DNA from: Escherichia coli phage vB_EcoS_Ace
Reading direction: 5' to 3' (one strand)
Sequence record: MT833283.1
Length of the DNA stretch: 64,000 nucleotides
Shown here: positions 21,233 to 58,970 of the stretch, one piece after another
Numbering within the stretch: position 1 is the first letter of the stretch
How the letters are laid out: every line of letters begins with the position of its first letter
Notes under the pieces: generated by a model
What the model was told of the DNA's origin: nothing
Database searches by the model: none
The model's input: the letters and a program-made list of their open reading frames with translations, nothing else
Position numbers and translations under genes: made by a program

Positions 21233-21832
21233 TTACACTTCTCCATGTTCTTCTGGATGCGGAGCTTGAGCTTTACTATATTGCTCTTTGCGATAATTCG
21301 CCAAAATTTCAATACGCTTATTGATTTCTTTGCTGTTGAGGTAGATATTCTTATTCTCTTTTACCATGTCCTCGATCTCGTCAATAGAGAAGAACGGGAA
21401 GTAAACATCGAGCATCATATCTTCTACAAACTGGTTGTAAGATTCATAGGCTTTCTTGATTTCTTGACCTTTCTCACAGAATCCGCCAGAGAACGTATGT
21501 CCCATAAGCGTAGCATGTGGATGTACAACCCAACCGTGGCAAGACAGGAAGATTGTGCAGTAAGCAGAAGCACTAGGACCGAGCAGGTGTCCAATAACCG
21601 TTCCACGACAGTTAGCGATTAGGTTAGATAGTTGTGCAGCAGTATCAACGTAACCACCAGGCCCATTAATCATCAGATTAATTTCATCATCTTCACCAGC
21701 CTGCATCAGTATCATGGATAGGTCACGATACTCATCCGGTGAGCCTAATTCTTCATCAAAGAAAAAGGTATATTCGTTAGATTGGCGAACAGTGTGAAAC
21801 AGGTTAGTCTTTTCTTCTTTCTTATTAGTCAT
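21233..21832 (-). CDS. ClpP-like serine protease (199 aa)
   Basis: ClpP-like core (NGPGGYV...LGPSASAY). Confidence 0.55.
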   Translation of the reverse strand: MTNKKEEKTNLFHTVRQSNEYTFFFDEELGSPDEYRDLSMILMQAGEDDEINLMINGPGGYVDTAAQLSNLIANCRGTVIGHLLGPSASAYCTIFLSCHGWVVHPHATLMGHTFSGGFCEKGQEIKKAYESYNQFVEDMMLDVYFPFFSIDEIEDMVKENKNIYLNSKEINKRIEILANYRKEQYSKAQAPHPEEHGEV

Positions 21833-48797: not shown

Positions 48798-48824
48798 AAA
48801 GCCCTCCTCACTTTCAATACGAAT

Positions 48825-48853
48825 ATTATACTAAATTCGAGGGCTTTAAGCAA
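48825..48853 (-). promoter_or_regulatory. sigma70 promoter (TATAAT / TTGCTT)
   Basis: minus strand; 17-bp spacer. Confidence 0.6.
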
Positions 48854-48873
48854 GTGAATTTTTAAATTATTTA

Positions 48874-49362
48874 TTACATCTCAGCAAGTTCTTGCTCAGT
48901 AATTACAGTATTGCATAGAGCATCAACTTCTTCATTACCACGAATACCTGAGTGACCTTTAACCTTAACAAAGGTTGGATTGGTATCATGGAAGTTAATA
49001 TACTGTTGAGTTAGTTTAAATGCTTCTTGCCAGAGTTCTAGATTAAGAGGAGTTTCACCATCTCCCTTCTTCCAGCCTTTCTTCTGCCAAGACCACATCC
49101 AGCTTTCCATACCATTTTTGCAGTAAGCAGAATCAGTGTAGATAATTACTGGACGATTATCTTTCTTAGTAGACCAACGAAGAACTTCTACAATTGCAGT
49201 AAGTTCCATTTCGTTATTAGTAGTTTTAGGGCTGAAGCCAGATTTAGAGCCAATACGATCATCATTATCATTATAGACAACGAATCCCCACGCACCTAAA
49301 CCAGGATTGCCTTTACATGCACCATCTGTATATATGTGGAAAACCGACATTATTTGCTCCAA
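48874..49362 (-). CDS. rnh: ribonuclease H (RnhA-like)
   Basis: YTDGACKGNPG, ELTA, DS.Y, HSG..GNE.D motifs. Confidence 0.75.
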   Translation of the reverse strand: MEQIMSVFHIYTDGACKGNPGLGAWGFVVYNDNDDRIGSKSGFSPKTTNNEMELTAIVEVLRWSTKKDNRPVIIYTDSAYCKNGMESWMWSWQKKGWKKGDGETPLNLELWQEAFKLTQQYINFHDTNPTFVKVKGHSGIRGNEEVDALCNTVITEQELAEM

Positions 49363-49619
49363 TCAATTTCAAGCCAAAAACCTTCACGTTGCTCATACTT
49401 AGCTTCCACAACATAACCTAGTTTGCTAAGTTTTTGCATGACGCTATTTCTAGCGTTTTCTGAGTATTCAGTTAATCCCTGGATGTGACAATTAAATTCT
49501 TTATCTTTAATAGCTTTGTCAATCTCTACGGCAATAAGTGATTCTAGGTCAATTACTTCCTTTTTAATGCTAGCAATAGTATTTTGTTTTGCTTCTAGAG
49601 CAGATAAAAGAATAGACAT
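49350..49619 (-). CDS. hypothetical protein (89 aa)
   Basis: ORF in track. Confidence 0.45.
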   Translation of the reverse strand: MSILLSALEAKQNTIASIKKEVIDLESLIAVEIDKAIKDKEFNCHIQGLTEYSENARNSVMQKLSKLGYVVEAKYEQREGFWLEIDWSK

Positions 49620-49621
49620 AT

Positions 49622-50200
49622 TTATTCTCCAATTACTAAAACATCATGTTGAGAAGATACACCACACATATAATCTGCACAATGCGTAAAAGCCAGATCA
49701 ATGATTTCAAATATATCATCTACATCTAAATCTGTGGCTCGACAATACGCAATAGCTAAACCTGTACGAATACTGGAAAGTACATCTTCTCCTCCACAGC
49801 CTACACCGGCATATTCAACTTCTAGAATAGAAGCATTAGATTGGAAAATAAAGATTCTTCCTTTGTAGAGCATAATAAATTGTCCCAGATTAGGTTCAGC
49901 ATATTTTTCATTTTTCTTTTCGCCAAAATCTTTCTGGTTAAACATATCACGTAATTTAGGTACTATTTCCGTGTATAAATATTTATCATCAGAAATATCT
50001 GCTAAACGTGGTGGTACAGTAAAGCTATGCTCTAGTAATTGTCCCATGTAGAAGGAACTAGTGTATCCGAAGTACAAATCATCAGAGATTTTGAATACTT
50101 TCGGATTTTTAACCAGCAGTTTCGTATAGCCATTAGAACCCATACGATCACCAGCTAAGTATACTTTATCTTTATATTTAAATGCTACTATGGCTGTCAT
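49622..50200 (-). CDS. Ntn-hydrolase, HslV/proteasome-beta-like (192 aa)
   Basis: N-terminal MTAIVAF...VYLAGDRMGS pattern resembling HslV; tentative. Confidence 0.4.
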   Translation of the reverse strand: MTAIVAFKYKDKVYLAGDRMGSNGYTKLLVKNPKVFKISDDLYFGYTSSFYMGQLLEHSFTVPPRLADISDDKYLYTEIVPKLRDMFNQKDFGEKKNEKYAEPNLGQFIMLYKGRIFIFQSNASILEVEYAGVGCGGEDVLSSIRTGLAIAYCRATDLDVDDIFEIIDLAFTHCADYMCGVSSQHDVLVIGE

Positions 50201-50230
50201 TATTAAATCCTTCTGTCAAATTAGAAGTAT

Positions 50231-50259
50231 ATTATATTTAAATTTCACTCAGTAAGCAA
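50231..50259 (-). promoter_or_regulatory. sigma70 promoter (TATAAT / TTGCTT)
   Basis: minus strand; 17-bp spacer. Confidence 0.55.
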
Positions 50260-50277
50260 ATGAAATTTAAATATAAT

Positions 50278-50295
50278 AGCCCCGAAGGGCTATTT
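50278..50295 (-). terminator. GC hairpin, possible terminator
   Basis: AGCCCCGAAGGGCT hairpin (GAAG tetraloop-like) between two minus-strand genes. Confidence 0.4.
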
Positions 50296-50298
50296 GAA

Positions 50299-50652
50299 TT
50301 AGATTATAATCAAGATTATTAGGGCGTATGTCAGATAATGCAGTAACTGATCAAATCCTAAAGCTATCCAAAACTTAGCATCGCTTATAGCGTATTTACA
50401 GCGTTGTGCTTTCCAATAATCTATAATAAAGTGTAGAATTAATTCCATAATAGCTAAAGCTATAGACATTCCTGGTGATGTGAATAGGATTAGAATTGCA
50501 AATGTTAATCCAGCATGTACTAGCGAATGGGTTAATAATGGAAGTTTCCACCCTATTTTATGCGTCTTTCTTAGCATATATGGTGTTTGGAGTGGATAAT
50601 CGGCCATAAAATGTTTTAGAAATAATATGACAAATAATAGTATAATTAACAT
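50299..50652 (-). CDS. multi-pass membrane protein (117 aa)
   Basis: ORF in track; strongly hydrophobic. Confidence 0.5.
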   Translation of the reverse strand: MLIILLFVILFLKHFMADYPLQTPYMLRKTHKIGWKLPLLTHSLVHAGLTFAILILFTSPGMSIALAIMELILHFIIDYWKAQRCKYAISDAKFWIALGFDQLLHYLTYALIILIII

Positions 50653-50655
50653 ATG

Positions 50656-51510
50656 TTACACCGTAAATGGATATGCAATAGCAGGATGGTGTTCATAGCC
50701 ACGAACAGTAAAATCATCCTTACTTACCCACGTTAATACATCATCCAAAGTTCTAATATTTGGATTGATTTCTAAAGTAGGAGGTGCAAAAGGTTCACGA
50801 TCGAATTGCTTGTGCTCCATCAGAACATTATACTGATCTTCATAGATATGAAGATTAATAATCTTTTGACGAGCAATACCTGGCTTAAGACCTGTAATCT
50901 GTGCCATAATAGCTAGAAGTGCATAGCATTGCACCATATTAAATACTTGGCCCAGCAAGAAATCATTAGACCTCTGGAAAGAGTTTAGGTATAGTGTATC
51001 ACCTAAAATAGAGAATTGATGGGTATGCATACACGGACGTAGGCATCCTTTACGAAATTCCCCAGGGTTCCAAAAAGTTAAAATTTCTCCACGATCGTCA
51101 ATCCCTCTTTTCAAATTATGATAGACTTTGGCTAACTGATCAAATACCATACCATCAGAATTAGTCCAATGACGTCCTTGAACACCATAAACTCGTCCCA
51201 TATCATCCTCGCCTTTACGGAATGGATTACCTAGCCAGGCAATATTTTCATTTGCATTAGCATTCCATGTATTAACACCAATAGCGCGGAATTGTGCTGC
51301 TGAGTCGTACCCACGGAGATATCCGATCATTTCCATTATTGCTTGTTTAGCAAATGCTTTACGAGTAGTTACTAGCGGCAGTTCTCCTGCTCCTACGTTA
51401 AAGGTAAAGTCTGCATCAATAATGGTTAGGCAACGAACCCCTGTTCTAGGATTCGTTACCCATACACCCTCTTCAAGAATACGTTTTCCAGTTTCAATAT
51501 ATTGCTTCAT
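50656..51510 (-). CDS. thyA: thymidylate synthase (ThyA family)
   Basis: 284 aa; ThyA-like blocks including catalytic Cys region (RPCMHTHQF). Confidence 0.7.
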
Positions 51511-52037
51511 TTAAATATCACCAATTCTTGTAAGAATGAAAGCGTTTTATCTGCATTCTGTCCTGCCACATAGTCCATTCTAGTTGCCATTGAATTAGTT
51601 AAAGTAATATGATGATGCAGATGTACATCAGCAGATAATGGTGTGGCTGAAGTAATAGTAGAGATATACGCCATATCTAGATGATTTTTGACATACATTT
51701 CAAGAAGCAGAGTTGCTCCCCCTAATACTACAGTTACCTCTTCCTTGAGAAAATCAGGCAGACGGTATCCAATGTTGCTTATGCGTGTAGCTGATCCTAC
51801 AGAGTTAGGTAGTGGTCTATTTGCATAAATAAATAGGTCAGAATCTCCTAGTATTCTTTTTTGCAGAGTCTCAGGGAAGGCTAACCAAGTTCCTGCTCCT
51901 ACAATAATATTATCAGGTGCTAGAGAATCCAAAGTAGCATAGAAAGTATTTAGTTCTTCTTTGAAAGAACCCCAAGGGAGTTTACCATTGAGGCCGAACT
52001 CCCCATTCGGCCCAGTTGCATAGATTGCTGCTATCAT
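51507..52037 (-). CDS. frd: dihydrofolate reductase
   Basis: 176 aa; N-terminal MIAAI...GKLPW motif; overlapped stop/start with thyA and nrdB. Confidence 0.65.
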
Positions 52038-57089: not shown

Positions 57090-58964
57090 ATGAATCGCAA
57101 TGAAGAACTAAAGTATAAAGGAATGCAGTCCTTGATTCGAAACTGCAAAGAAATTATCGAAGGTTCAGCAGATGAAGAGCTGCTGTTTAATAATGCCAAT
57201 AAGCCCTCAGAACGTTTCCCTACACAAAGGGATATGCTTGCAGGGGAATTGAGTAAATATCTGATTCTGGAAGAAATGCCAATCCAGATTCGAAATGCTC
57301 ACATGATTGGTGATATTCACTTCCATGATGCTGATTACGCTGCATTAGGTATGACTAACTGTTGCCTGGTTGCTTTGGAAGATATGTTGAAAAACGGTAT
57401 GAAGGTTGGTAATGCTGAAATCAGTACGCCAAACTCCATTACTACTGCGGCTGCTATTACAGCTCAGATTATTACTCAGGTTAGCTCCCATCAATATGGT
57501 GGTACTTCTGTAGACCGATTAGATGAAGTACTGGCTCCTTATGTTCGTAAGTCTTATGATAAGAATCATGCGTTTGCAAAACGTTGGACTAAGGATGAAG
57601 CCAAAGCATCTGTAATGGCTACGGAAATGACTGAGAAAGAAGTTTACGATGCCTGTCAGGGCCTGGAGTATGAAATCAATACGATGTTCAACTCTAATGG
57701 TCAAAGTCCGTTTATTACCTTTGGGTTTGGTCTAGGAACTTCTTGGGAAGCACGTCTTGTACAGAAAGCAATCCTAGAAGTGCGTATGGATGGTTTGGGT
57801 ATCAATAAACGTACAGCTATCTTCCCTAAACTGGTATTTGTTTTGCGTGATGGCGTAAACATGAAACCTGGTGATGTTAACTATGATATCAAGAAGTTAG
57901 CTATGAAATGTACTGCTGAACGTATGTATCCTGACTACATCAGTTATGATAAGGTTGTAGAAGTTACGGGAGACTACAAAGTCTCTATGGGCTGTCGTTC
58001 ATTCCTGGCTGCTGCGGAAGATGGTGAAACTTCTGGTCGTAACAACTTAGGCGTTGTTTCCGTAAACCTTCCTCGAATCGCTATCGAAGCGGAAGGAAAT
58101 ATTGATCTATTCTTCGATCTACTTGAGCTGCGTGTGGATACCGCGTTAAAAGCATTGGAGTGGAGGGTTGATCGCTTAAAATACATTCAAGCTAAAGCTG
58201 CGCCCATCCTCTATATGTCAGGAGCCTTTGGATTACGTCTGGGGCCAGATGAATATGTATTTGATCATTTCTACAAGCGTGCTTCCGTATCTCTAGGATA
58301 TATTGGTTGCCACGAAATGTTGCAGCTCATGTTTGGTAAAGATGTAGATACAATGTCTGAGTCTTGTATCAAGTTCGTTCAACGTGTGCTACAATATATG
58401 CGTGATCGTGCTGATCAGAAGAAGGAAGAGACTCAGTTAGGTTATAGTCTGTATGCTACACCATCTGAATCTCTGTGTGATCGCTTCTGTCGTCTAGACC
58501 GTGAGTACTTCCCAGAGCATGAGGATATTCTGGCTAAAGGATATTACACTAACTCCCATCACCTTGATGTAGAACGTAAGGTTGCTCCAAATGTGAAATT
58601 TGATTATGAGTCTAACTTTACTCCTATTGCTTCTGGTGGGTGCATTTCCTACGTGGAATTACCTGACATGAAGAAATTCCCAGATGCCCTAGAATGGGTA
58701 ATTAACTATGCTGCAAGTAAAGTTCACTACTTTGGTATTAATACTCCAGTTGATTCTTGTGGTGAGTGTGGATTCTTAGGCGAAACAATTGCTTCTGAAG
58801 ATGGATTTAAATGCCCAATTTGTGGCAACCATGATCCTGAGACTCTTGAGGTAACACGTCGTGTTTGTGGGTACCTTGGTAATCCAGGTGCACGCCCATT
58901 TAACCCAGGTAAACAGCATGAGGTTATGGGACGAATCAAGCATGCAGATGTAAGAGCTAAATAA
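57090..58964 (+). CDS. nrdD: anaerobic ribonucleoside-triphosphate reductase (NrdD)
   Basis: 624 aa; C-terminal Cys cluster and glycyl-radical motif RVCGYLG; consensus promoter and SD upstream. Confidence 0.8.
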   Translation: MNRNEELKYKGMQSLIRNCKEIIEGSADEELLFNNANKPSERFPTQRDMLAGELSKYLILEEMPIQIRNAHMIGDIHFHDADYAALGMTNCCLVALEDMLKNGMKVGNAEISTPNSITTAAAITAQIITQVSSHQYGGTSVDRLDEVLAPYVRKSYDKNHAFAKRWTKDEAKASVMATEMTEKEVYDACQGLEYEINTMFNSNGQSPFITFGFGLGTSWEARLVQKAILEVRMDGLGINKRTAIFPKLVFVLRDGVNMKPGDVNYDIKKLAMKCTAERMYPDYISYDKVVEVTGDYKVSMGCRSFLAAAEDGETSGRNNLGVVSVNLPRIAIEAEGNIDLFFDLLELRVDTALKALEWRVDRLKYIQAKAAPILYMSGAFGLRLGPDEYVFDHFYKRASVSLGYIGCHEMLQLMFGKDVDTMSESCIKFVQRVLQYMRDRADQKKEETQLGYSLYATPSESLCDRFCRLDREYFPEHEDILAKGYYTNSHHLDVERKVAPNVKFDYESNFTPIASGGCISYVELPDMKKFPDALEWVINYAASKVHYFGINTPVDSCGECGFLGETIASEDGFKCPICGNHDPETLEVTRRVCGYLGNPGARPFNPGKQHEVMGRIKHADVRAK

Positions 58965-58970
58965 TGAATC

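What the first reader, a model, noticed from the sequence alone, without database searches (positions are those of the whole stretch)
49622..50200. Phage-encoded HslV-like Ntn hydrolase in addition to a ClpP-like protease
ORF 49622..50200 begins MTAIVAF...VYLAGDRMGS, resembling the N-terminal catalytic-Thr region of HslV/proteasome beta subunits. A ClpP-like gene lies at 21233..21832. Two separate protease-like genes in one phage suggest targeted degradation of host or phage proteins.
Basis: inference. Interest (0 to 1): 0.4.

Follow-up and report, generated by a model that had tools for sequence, protein, structure and literature searches.

The report
Phage proteasome-like threonine protease gene
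A T5-like phage carries an optional early gene for a small proteasome/HslV-type protease subunit with an intact active site; databases already label it this way and the wider family has been described, but nobody knows what it cuts.

Summary

The interpretation needs trimming:
- The protein is not an HslV orthologue. It belongs to a separate, mostly phage and prophage clade, most likely the 'AAH' group of Fuchs, Alva and Lupas 2021.
- No unfoldase is annotated in the closest phage genome (Sepoy), and no partner gene is conserved next to homologues.
- It is an accessory gene. It sits in a hypervariable slot between thymidylate synthase and RNase H, about 125 of about 430 T5-like genomes carry it, and T5 has no copy at that locus.
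- The ClpP-like gene is found in about 440 T5-like records, T5-type phages included, so nothing links the two genes.

Identical proteins are already annotated 'proteasome subunit' or 'HslV family peptidase'. Substrates and function remain untested. Verdict: ordinary, low to moderate interest.

The parts
49622..50200 (-). 192-aa proteasome-family (MEROPS T1-like) Ntn threonine-peptidase subunit. Thr2 becomes Thr1 after Met removal. Asp18 and Lys34 are the Asp17/Lys33 equivalents, Gly45 is the oxyanion-hole Gly, and Gly134-Cys135-Gly136 corresponds to the GSG (Ser129) motif.
50208..50212 (-). Shine-Dalgarno-like AAGGA, 7 nt upstream of the ATG at 50200
   Evidence: read from the sequence; a ribosome-binding site is annotated at the same place in phage Sepoy
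50231..50259 (-). sigma-70-type promoter, TTGCTT (50259-50254), 17 nt spacer, TATAAT (50236-50231). It is homologous to the promoter annotated between thy and rnh in phage T5.
   Evidence: 81% identity to the T5 intergenic region; both hexamer regions largely conserved across three T5-like phages. The generic scan missed it because the -35 hexamer matches only 3 of 6.
50275..50294 (-). Hairpin AATAGCCC-TTCG-GGGCTATT directly after the upstream DUF3307 gene. It looks like a terminator and is conserved in T5 and KKP_3711.
   Evidence: not called by the terminator scan because no T-run of 5 or more follows
49350..49619 (-). 89-aa ORF of unknown function (PHROG_13270). Its ATG lies 2 nt after the protease stop codon, so it is probably translationally coupled. 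It is not a conserved partner.
   Evidence: It occurs in 217 T5-like records against 125 for the protease gene. It is absent next to the homologue in KKP_3711.
48874..49350 (-). RNase H gene, last gene of the same apparent early transcription unit
50299..50652 (-). DUF3307 membrane-protein gene upstream. It is another variable occupant of the thy-rnh slot.
21233..21832 (-). ClpP-related serine-protease-like gene, the second gene named in the finding. Ser89 and His112 align with the ClpP catalytic Ser and His; the Asp position is Asn162.

Best explanation
The gene encodes a catalytically competent subunit of a proteasome-family threonine peptidase. It belongs to the phage- and prophage-borne clade that branches with HslV and BPH, most probably the 'AAH' group of Fuchs, Alva and Lupas 2021. 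There is no propeptide, so host methionine aminopeptidase removing Met1 exposes the Thr1 nucleophile, as in HslV (inferred). Asp17, Lys33 and the Gly oxyanion residue complete the classical proteasomal active site (shown by conservation). By analogy with every ring-forming relative, the subunits probably assemble into stacked homo-oligomeric rings with internal active sites (inferred). The gene sits behind a sigma-70-type promoter homologous to the one annotated in the early region of T5, in one unit with an 89-aa ORF and RNase H (promoter homology shown; timing inferred). It is an accessory cargo gene in a hypervariable slot, not part of the T5-like core. It most likely acts without a dedicated unfoldase, as BPH appears to, on peptides or on a restricted set of unfolded or specific host or phage proteins. 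Its substrates are unknown.
Against: No biochemical or genetic data exist for any member of this clade (literature searches). BPH itself showed no activity in standard assays according to its authors, so an intact active site does not guarantee general protease activity. Ring assembly and stoichiometry could not be modelled here. The assignment to AAH rests on length, secondary structure and taxonomic spread, because the reference sequence WP_035979212 could not be fetched. The proteasomal Asp166 equivalent is not conserved in the family. Early expression is inferred from homology of the promoter to one annotated in T5, not measured.
Confidence: 0.7

Rival explanations
1. Hijacking of host HslU. 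The phage subunit replaces or joins host HslV and uses the host HslU ATPase (E. coli or Salmonella) as its unfoldase, redirecting ATP-dependent proteolysis during infection.
For: HslV chains are among the top structural matches. No ATPase partner is annotated in the closest phage genome. Like HslV, the protein starts Met-Thr with no propeptide. Authors of phage genome papers have noted HslV-like genes without HslU (PMC7823757).
Confidence: 0.1
2. Sequence-specific processing enzyme or transpeptidase, like the proteasome homologue connectase. It would act on one defined phage or host protein rather than as a degradative chamber, and might be monomeric.
For: The proteasome-like family includes a monomeric, highly specific ligase (PMC8665760). 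BPH-like relatives lack activity in generic protease assays. The family has its own invariant motif, G-[YF]-T-x-S-F-x-M-G-Q, next to the oxyanion Gly, which could shape a specific substrate pocket.
Confidence: 0.12
3. Catalytically irrelevant protein: a decoy or inhibitor that co-assembles with or titrates host HslV/HslU, or a purely structural protein that retains the fold.
For: Inactive proteasome-fold subunits exist (alpha subunits and some eukaryotic beta subunits). No activity data exist for this clade.
Confidence: 0.04
4. Non-peptidase Ntn amidohydrolase acting on a small molecule such as a cell-wall precursor, an acyl-amide or a signalling nucleotide-peptide conjugate.
Confidence: 0.04

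Closest known systems
[quoted passage not shown]
   Same: Compact subunit of about 180-190 aa with all four helices H1-H4. No propeptide, no insertions and no C-terminal H5. Thr1/Asp17/Lys33/Gly active site. Homologues are found in Streptomyces, alpha-proteobacteria, Firmicutes and many phages and prophages.
   Different: CPH, a small related cluster also seen in phages, cannot be excluded.
BPH (betaproteobacterial proteasome homologue; PDB 5ovs, 5ovu)
   Different: Only 13-22% identity, and the family profile scores E=0.006. The loop here (KDFGEKKNEKYAEPNLGQ) has mixed charge, not the acidic run typical of BPH. The gene is phage-borne rather than sitting in bacterial stress-linked operons.
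HslV (ClpQ), the peptidase of the HslUV protease
   Different: No HslV-specific profile match. No hslU in the closest phage genome. Longer H1-H2-loop region: 60 profile positions against 47 residues in T. maritima HslV between the aligned blocks. The family is present in Actinobacteria, a phylum listed without HslV.
PPH / RPC (proteasome homologue of phages and their hosts, and its C-terminally extended relative)
   Same: Phage-borne proteasome homologues. PHROG_1040 lumps them with this protein.
   Different: PPH is about 140 aa and lacks helix H2. This protein is 192 aa with H2 at residues 71-89. A PPH/RPC-like 294-aa protein of Aeromonas phage 4L372D shows no BLASTP similarity to it (E=0.62).
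ClpP (for the second gene, 21233..21832)
   Same: Pfam CLP_protease above the cut-off. The catalytic Ser and His align (Ser89, His112).
   Different: Scores lie far below every NCBIfam ClpP cut-off (15-21 bits against 228-347). The catalytic Asp is replaced by Asn162. It scores better against phage ClpP-related head-maturation protease models, although it sits among early genes and the closest relative has a separate prohead protease.

Membership tests
Proteasome-like family (Pfam PF00227 / MEROPS T1 fold) | Sequence match to the family model above the curated threshold | tested here: met
   38.6 bits against a gathering score of 22.4, covering residues 2-189
Proteasome-like family (Pfam PF00227 / MEROPS T1 fold) | Ntn-hydrolase alpha-beta-beta-alpha sandwich of proteasome-beta type | tested here: met
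Proteasome-like family (Pfam PF00227 / MEROPS T1 fold) | Catalytic Thr1, Asp/Glu17, Lys33 and the oxyanion Gly (Gly47 in 20S beta, Gly45 in HslV) | tested here: met
   T2, D18, K34 and G45 (numbering with Met1) are invariant in 168 homologues and align to PrcB and HslV
Proteasome-like family (Pfam PF00227 / MEROPS T1 fold) | Free N-terminal Thr in the mature protein and peptidase activity | not testable with these tools
   Only inferred: Met-Thr start, no room for a propeptide, and the known preference of methionine aminopeptidase for a small second residue
HslV (ClpQ) sensu stricto | Match to HslV-specific profiles, or close sequence similarity to HslV | tested here: not met
   No HslV model in the NCBIfam output at E<=1. 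E. coli and H. influenzae HslV chains score E 0.03-0.07 against the family profile; T. maritima HslV scores 3.6e-6, and only over the C-terminal half.
HslV (ClpQ) sensu stricto | Partner AAA+ HslU encoded with it | tested here: not met
   No HslU or other unfoldase in the annotation of the near-identical phage Sepoy. No conserved neighbour among 160 homologous loci. Use of the host's HslU is not testable here.
HslV (ClpQ) sensu stricto | Short H2-S7 pore linker with the basic cluster Arg86/Arg89/Lys90 (PMC5777263) | tested here: inconclusive
   The model has an 18-residue loop with mixed charge at residues 90-107. No residue-level structural superposition was available.
HslV (ClpQ) sensu stricto | Dodecamer of two hexameric rings | not testable with these tools
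   No multimer prediction was possible
AAH (Fuchs et al. 2021) | Clusters with the AAH reference WP_035979212 in sequence space | not testable with these tools
AAH (Fuchs et al. 2021) | Compact group I architecture: H1-H4 present, no insertions, no S12/H5, no propeptide | tested here: met
   Secondary structure of the model: H 50-59, 71-89, 137-153 and 160-175, with a last strand at 185-190
AAH (Fuchs et al. 2021) | Distribution: Actinobacteria, alpha-proteobacteria, Firmicutes and many phages | tested here: met
   Genome scan and viral scan; prophage-type neighbours
PPH (Fuchs et al. 2021) | About 140 residues, lacking helix H2 | tested here: not met
   192 aa, with H2 predicted at residues 71-89 at high confidence
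BPH | Sequence membership and the highly acidic elongated pore loop | tested here: not met
   13-22% identity and profile E=0.006. The loop sequence KDFGEKKNEKYAEPNLGQ has 4 acidic and 4 basic residues.
ClpP (second gene) | Ser-His-Asp triad and a match to ClpP equivalog models | tested here: not met
   Ser89 and His112 align, but the Asp position is Asn162. NCBIfam ClpP models score 15-21 bits against cut-offs of 228-347. Only the broad Pfam CLP_protease family is passed.

The most novel reading that the evidence does not exclude
The proteasome-like gene is a mobile host-takeover or counter-defence cassette. In this reading it is a stand-alone, early-made, self-compartmentalising threonine protease that selectively destroys a host defence or housekeeping protein, or commandeers a host unfoldase. 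That would explain why it hops between hypervariable accessory slots of unrelated phages (T5-like, Plateaulakevirus, 121Q-like jumbo phages, many prophages). It would be the first functional assignment for any viral proteasome homologue.
Probability: 0.15. Interest if true: 0.6.

Novelty: already known. Interest (0 to 1): 0.27.

Why it matters
Phage-borne proteasome homologues were catalogued by sequence in 2021, but I found no experimental function for any of them in the held library. This T5-like example has practical advantages. The host is a model organism. Natural isogenic-like relatives with and without the gene exist, for example BASEL phages TrudiRoth and IrmaTschudi against GreteKellenberger (without). 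The transcription unit is simple. It is therefore a convenient system to ask what a viral proteasome-like protease cuts and whether it needs a host unfoldase. As a sequence finding it adds nothing new, because identical proteins are already labelled 'proteasome subunit' or 'peptidase HslV family' in GenBank, RefSeq and UniProt.

Tried and rejected
1. Functional link between the ClpP-like and proteasome-like genes: rejected. Their distributions differ (about 440 records against about 125). The weakly ClpP-like 'protease' two genes upstream of the homologue in a 121Q-like jumbo phage is unrelated to the window's ClpP-like protein (BLASTP E=4.5).

2. Conserved partner gene (unfoldase, adaptor or substrate): ORF clustering over 160 bacterial and viral loci found none. 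The best neighbour family is in 12 loci, and the neighbours are ordinary phage genes.

3. The 89-aa downstream ORF as a dedicated partner: rejected. It occurs in about 90 more T5-like genomes than the protease gene and is missing beside the KKP_3711 homologue.

4. A second paralogue in the window, as seen in Aeromonas phage 4L372D: none. The family HMM hits only 49625..50215 in the six-frame translation.

5. C-terminal extensions of longer relatives as a functional clue: no Pfam domain in ten of them.

6. Literature on any experimental characterisation: searches found only the 2021 bioinformatic survey and genome-announcement remarks.

7. The generic promoter/terminator scan did not call the promoter or the hairpin. 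They were identified by homology to the T5 annotation instead.

8. Direct assignment to AAH, CPH or PPH failed for lack of the reference sequences.

9. Searches produced nothing: a file-path error and a placeholder script.

Full report
**What is there.** The window is the left 64 kb of a T5-like phage (Demerecviridae, genus Epseptimavirus). The region 48800-51600 is 99.6-99.7% identical to many such phages, including Salmonella phage Sepoy and Escherichia phage IrmaTschudi. The ORF at 49622..50200 lies on the minus strand, starts with ATG and encodes 192 aa beginning MTAIVAFKYKDKVYLAGDRMGS. The exact protein is QNR52236.1 of E. coli phage vB_EcoS_Ace. Members of its 90%-identity cluster are already named 'Proteasome subunit', 'putative proteasome', 'protease' or 'peptidase HslV family' in GenBank, RefSeq and UniProt.

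**Is it a proteasome/HslV-type Ntn hydrolase?** Yes.
- It passes Pfam PF00227 (38.6 bits against a cut-off of 22.4, residues 2-189) and hits PHROG_1040 'peptidase HslV family' (E=1.9e-21).
- An AlphaFold2 model built on 18 homologues is confident (pLDDT 91.1, pTM 0.88).
- Foldseek against the PDB returns HslV and BPH first (E about 1e-10, TM 0.63-0.70).

**Active site and maturation.**
- I aligned the query with 167 proteins returned by the homology and exhaustive profile searches, which range down to about 30% identity. Thr2, Asp18, Lys34, Gly45 and Gly134 are 100% conserved. Ser49 is 98% conserved. Position 135 is Cys in 63% and Ser in 30%.
- After removal of Met1 these residues are exactly Thr1, Asp17 and Lys33 of the proteasome numbering. 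HMMER aligns them onto M. tuberculosis PrcB and HslV.
- G-x-G-[C/S]-G aligns with the GSG (Ser129) motif of HslV.
- 160 of 167 homologues begin Met-Thr.
- Only five codons lie upstream in frame before a stop, so there is no propeptide. 'Processing' reduces to initiator-Met removal. I infer this from the known preference of methionine aminopeptidase for small second residues and from the identical MT start of HslV (established knowledge, not tested here).
- dN/dS against two orthologues is 0.08 and 0.03, so the gene is functional and constrained.

**Which family?** It is not HslV proper.
- NCBIfam reported no HslV model at E<=1.
- The family profile scores E. coli and H. influenzae HslV only at E 0.03-0.07, bacterial 20S beta at 0.0015 and BPH at 0.006. 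T. maritima HslV does better (3.6e-6), but mainly over the C-terminal half.
- The exhaustive search shows a large separate family: 6638 50%-identity representatives at E<=1e-3 and 783 at E<=1e-30, nearly all about 180 aa and aligned from residue 1.
- The family carries its own signature, G-[YF]-T-x-S-F-[RY]-M-G-Q.
- In genomes it occurs in Streptomyces, Azospirillum, Mesorhizobium, Devosia, Myxococcota, Paraburkholderia and Firmicutes. It is common in viral contigs.
- Clustered neighbours in these loci are portal, terminase, HK97 protease, capsid, DnaB and methylase genes, which indicates prophage contexts.

This matches the 'AAH' group described by Fuchs, Alva and Lupas (PMC8665760). [quoted passage not shown] It does not fit their PPH, which is about 140 aa and lacks helix H2. 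The model has H2 at residues 71-89. A PPH/RPC-like protein from Aeromonas phage 4L372D shows no BLASTP similarity to it. I could not fetch the AAH, CPH or PPH reference sequences, so the AAH assignment is an inference.

**Partner and mode of action.**
- No AAA+ unfoldase is annotated anywhere in the near-identical phage Sepoy.
- No neighbour family is shared by more than 12 of 160 homologous loci.
- The family is abundant in Streptomyces, and Table 1 of PMC8665760 lists no HslV in Actinobacteria. The family as a whole therefore cannot depend on HslU.
- The segment between H2 and the following strand (residues 90-107, KDFGEKKNEKYAEPNLGQ) is long. HslV has a short linker there, and BPH has a long acidic loop.

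I therefore favour a BPH-like, unfoldase-independent ring protease over an HslU-dependent one. Neither ring assembly nor HslU binding could be tested. The BPH authors found no activity in standard assays and proposed a specialised substrate range. The same caution applies here.

**Genomic setting.**
- The gene sits in a long minus-strand block of early-type genes: nrdA, nrdB, frd, thy, DUF3307, this gene, an 89-aa ORF, then rnh.
- Directly upstream lie a hairpin (50294-50275), a TTGCTT-17-TATAAT promoter (50259-50231) and an AAGGA ribosome-binding site (50212-50208).
- This intergenic element is 81% identical to the T5 thy-rnh intergenic region, where a promoter is annotated. It aligns with the equivalent region of Enterobacter phage KKP_3711.
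- In T5 the promoter is followed directly by rnh. Here it is followed by the protease gene, the 89-aa ORF (stop and start 2 nt apart) and rnh.
- The thy-rnh slot is hypervariable. T5 has nothing in it. GreteKellenberger has an 84-aa and the 89-aa ORF. KKP_3711 has a 63-aa ORF plus the protease gene. This window has DUF3307, the protease gene and the 89-aa ORF.
- Among T5-like records in the phage collection, 432 match the region. Only 125 carry the protease at >=90% identity, and none falls between 60% and 90%. The 89-aa ORF is in 217 records and DUF3307 in 153.

The gene is thus dispensable cargo. More distant homologues (30-42% identity) occur in Aeromonas, Vibrio and 121Q-like jumbo phages. 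BFVD holds about 28 viral structure clusters with this fold.

**The second protease-like gene.** 21233..21832 (minus strand, 199 aa) passes Pfam CLP_protease (30.8 bits against 20.2) and is PHROG_1827 'ATP-dependent protease'.
- Ser89 and His112 align with the ClpP catalytic Ser and His, but the Asp position is Asn162.
- NCBIfam ClpP models are missed by more than 200 bits. The best NCBIfam hit is a ClpP-related head-maturation protease domain, itself below its cut-off.
- The gene lies between dNMP kinase and the holin/endolysin genes. A separate prohead protease exists in the late region of the closest relative.
- Hits at >=80% identity occur in about 440 T5-like records, including the 216 in the 80-90% band where T5-type phages fall.

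So this gene is near-universal among T5-like phages, the proteasome-like gene is optional, and they lie 28 kb apart. Nothing connects them functionally. Counting the prohead protease of the closest relative, the phage type has three protease-like genes rather than two.

**Comparison with what is known, and verdict.** The protein works like, and is a member of, the proteasome-like (T1) superfamily. It is not a member of HslV, BPH or PPH by the tests above, and it is most likely AAH. Phage proteasome homologues are documented (PMC8665760) and phage genome papers mention HslV-only genes (PMC7823757). I found no experimental work on any of them. The finding is a correct, slightly mislabelled annotation of a known but uncharacterised family. 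Its value lies in offering a tractable E. coli/Salmonella phage system for a first functional study, not in novelty of the sequence observation.

Noticed in passing
window 49350-50652, compared with L002 (T5), L003 (KKP_3711) and L169 (GreteKellenberger): The slot between thymidylate synthase and RNase H is a hypervariable accessory-gene site in T5-like phages. It is empty in T5. GreteKellenberger has 84-aa and 89-aa ORFs. KKP_3711 has a 63-aa ORF plus the protease gene. This window has DUF3307, the protease gene and the 89-aa ORF. The flanking hairpin and promoter are conserved.
   Followed up: partly
window 50656-51510: The window's thymidylate synthase gene (284 aa) gave no blastn match to T5 thy at E<=1e-5, although the flanking rnh matches at 84%. 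It matches KKP_3711 thy at 76%. This may be an allelic or xenologous replacement of thy between T5-like genera.
   Followed up: no
L004 3501-4954 (Aeromonas phage 4L372D, NC_048771): Two adjacent proteasome-like genes. One is a 183-aa member of this family (42% identical). The other is a 294-aa PPH/RPC-like protein with a GSGS motif and a long acidic C-terminal extension. Both have Thr right after the initiator codon, which might indicate a two-subunit phage proteasome-like complex.
   Followed up: partly
L005 2565-4094 (Escherichia jumbo phage vB_EcoM_E9.1, 121Q-like): A 202-aa 'protease' (PHROG_26024) lies two genes upstream of the proteasome-like gene. It has a weak, sub-threshold ClpP match (17.5 bits) and a hydrophobic N-terminus. 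It is unrelated to the T5-type ClpP-like protein (BLASTP E=4.5).
   Followed up: partly
window 21233-21832: The T5-type ClpP-like protein keeps the Ser and His but has Asn162 where ClpP has the catalytic Asp. It sits among early and lysis genes, not in the head module, and its role in T5-like phages appears uncharacterised.
   Followed up: partly
P0033, P0039, P0040, P0048, P0058, P0073, P0093 (family members): Some family members carry C-terminal extensions of 120-200 aa with no Pfam domain. BFVD also shows 288-aa and 388-aa viral versions. These could be interaction or targeting modules.
   Followed up: partly
window about 57090-58970 (by homology to Sepoy 57092-58966): In the closest relative, the NrdD-like anaerobic ribonucleotide reductase gene is annotated as joined from two pieces, suggesting an intron or other interruption. 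I did not examine this in the window.
   Followed up: no
window 1-21000 compared with Sepoy (L166): The ClpP-like gene is at 21233 in the window but at 21515 in Sepoy, while coordinates agree to within 1 nt by 48.8 kb. There must be compensating indels in the pre-early and early regions, so the window is a relative of Sepoy and not Sepoy itself. The exact protease protein matches phage vB_EcoS_Ace.
   Followed up: no
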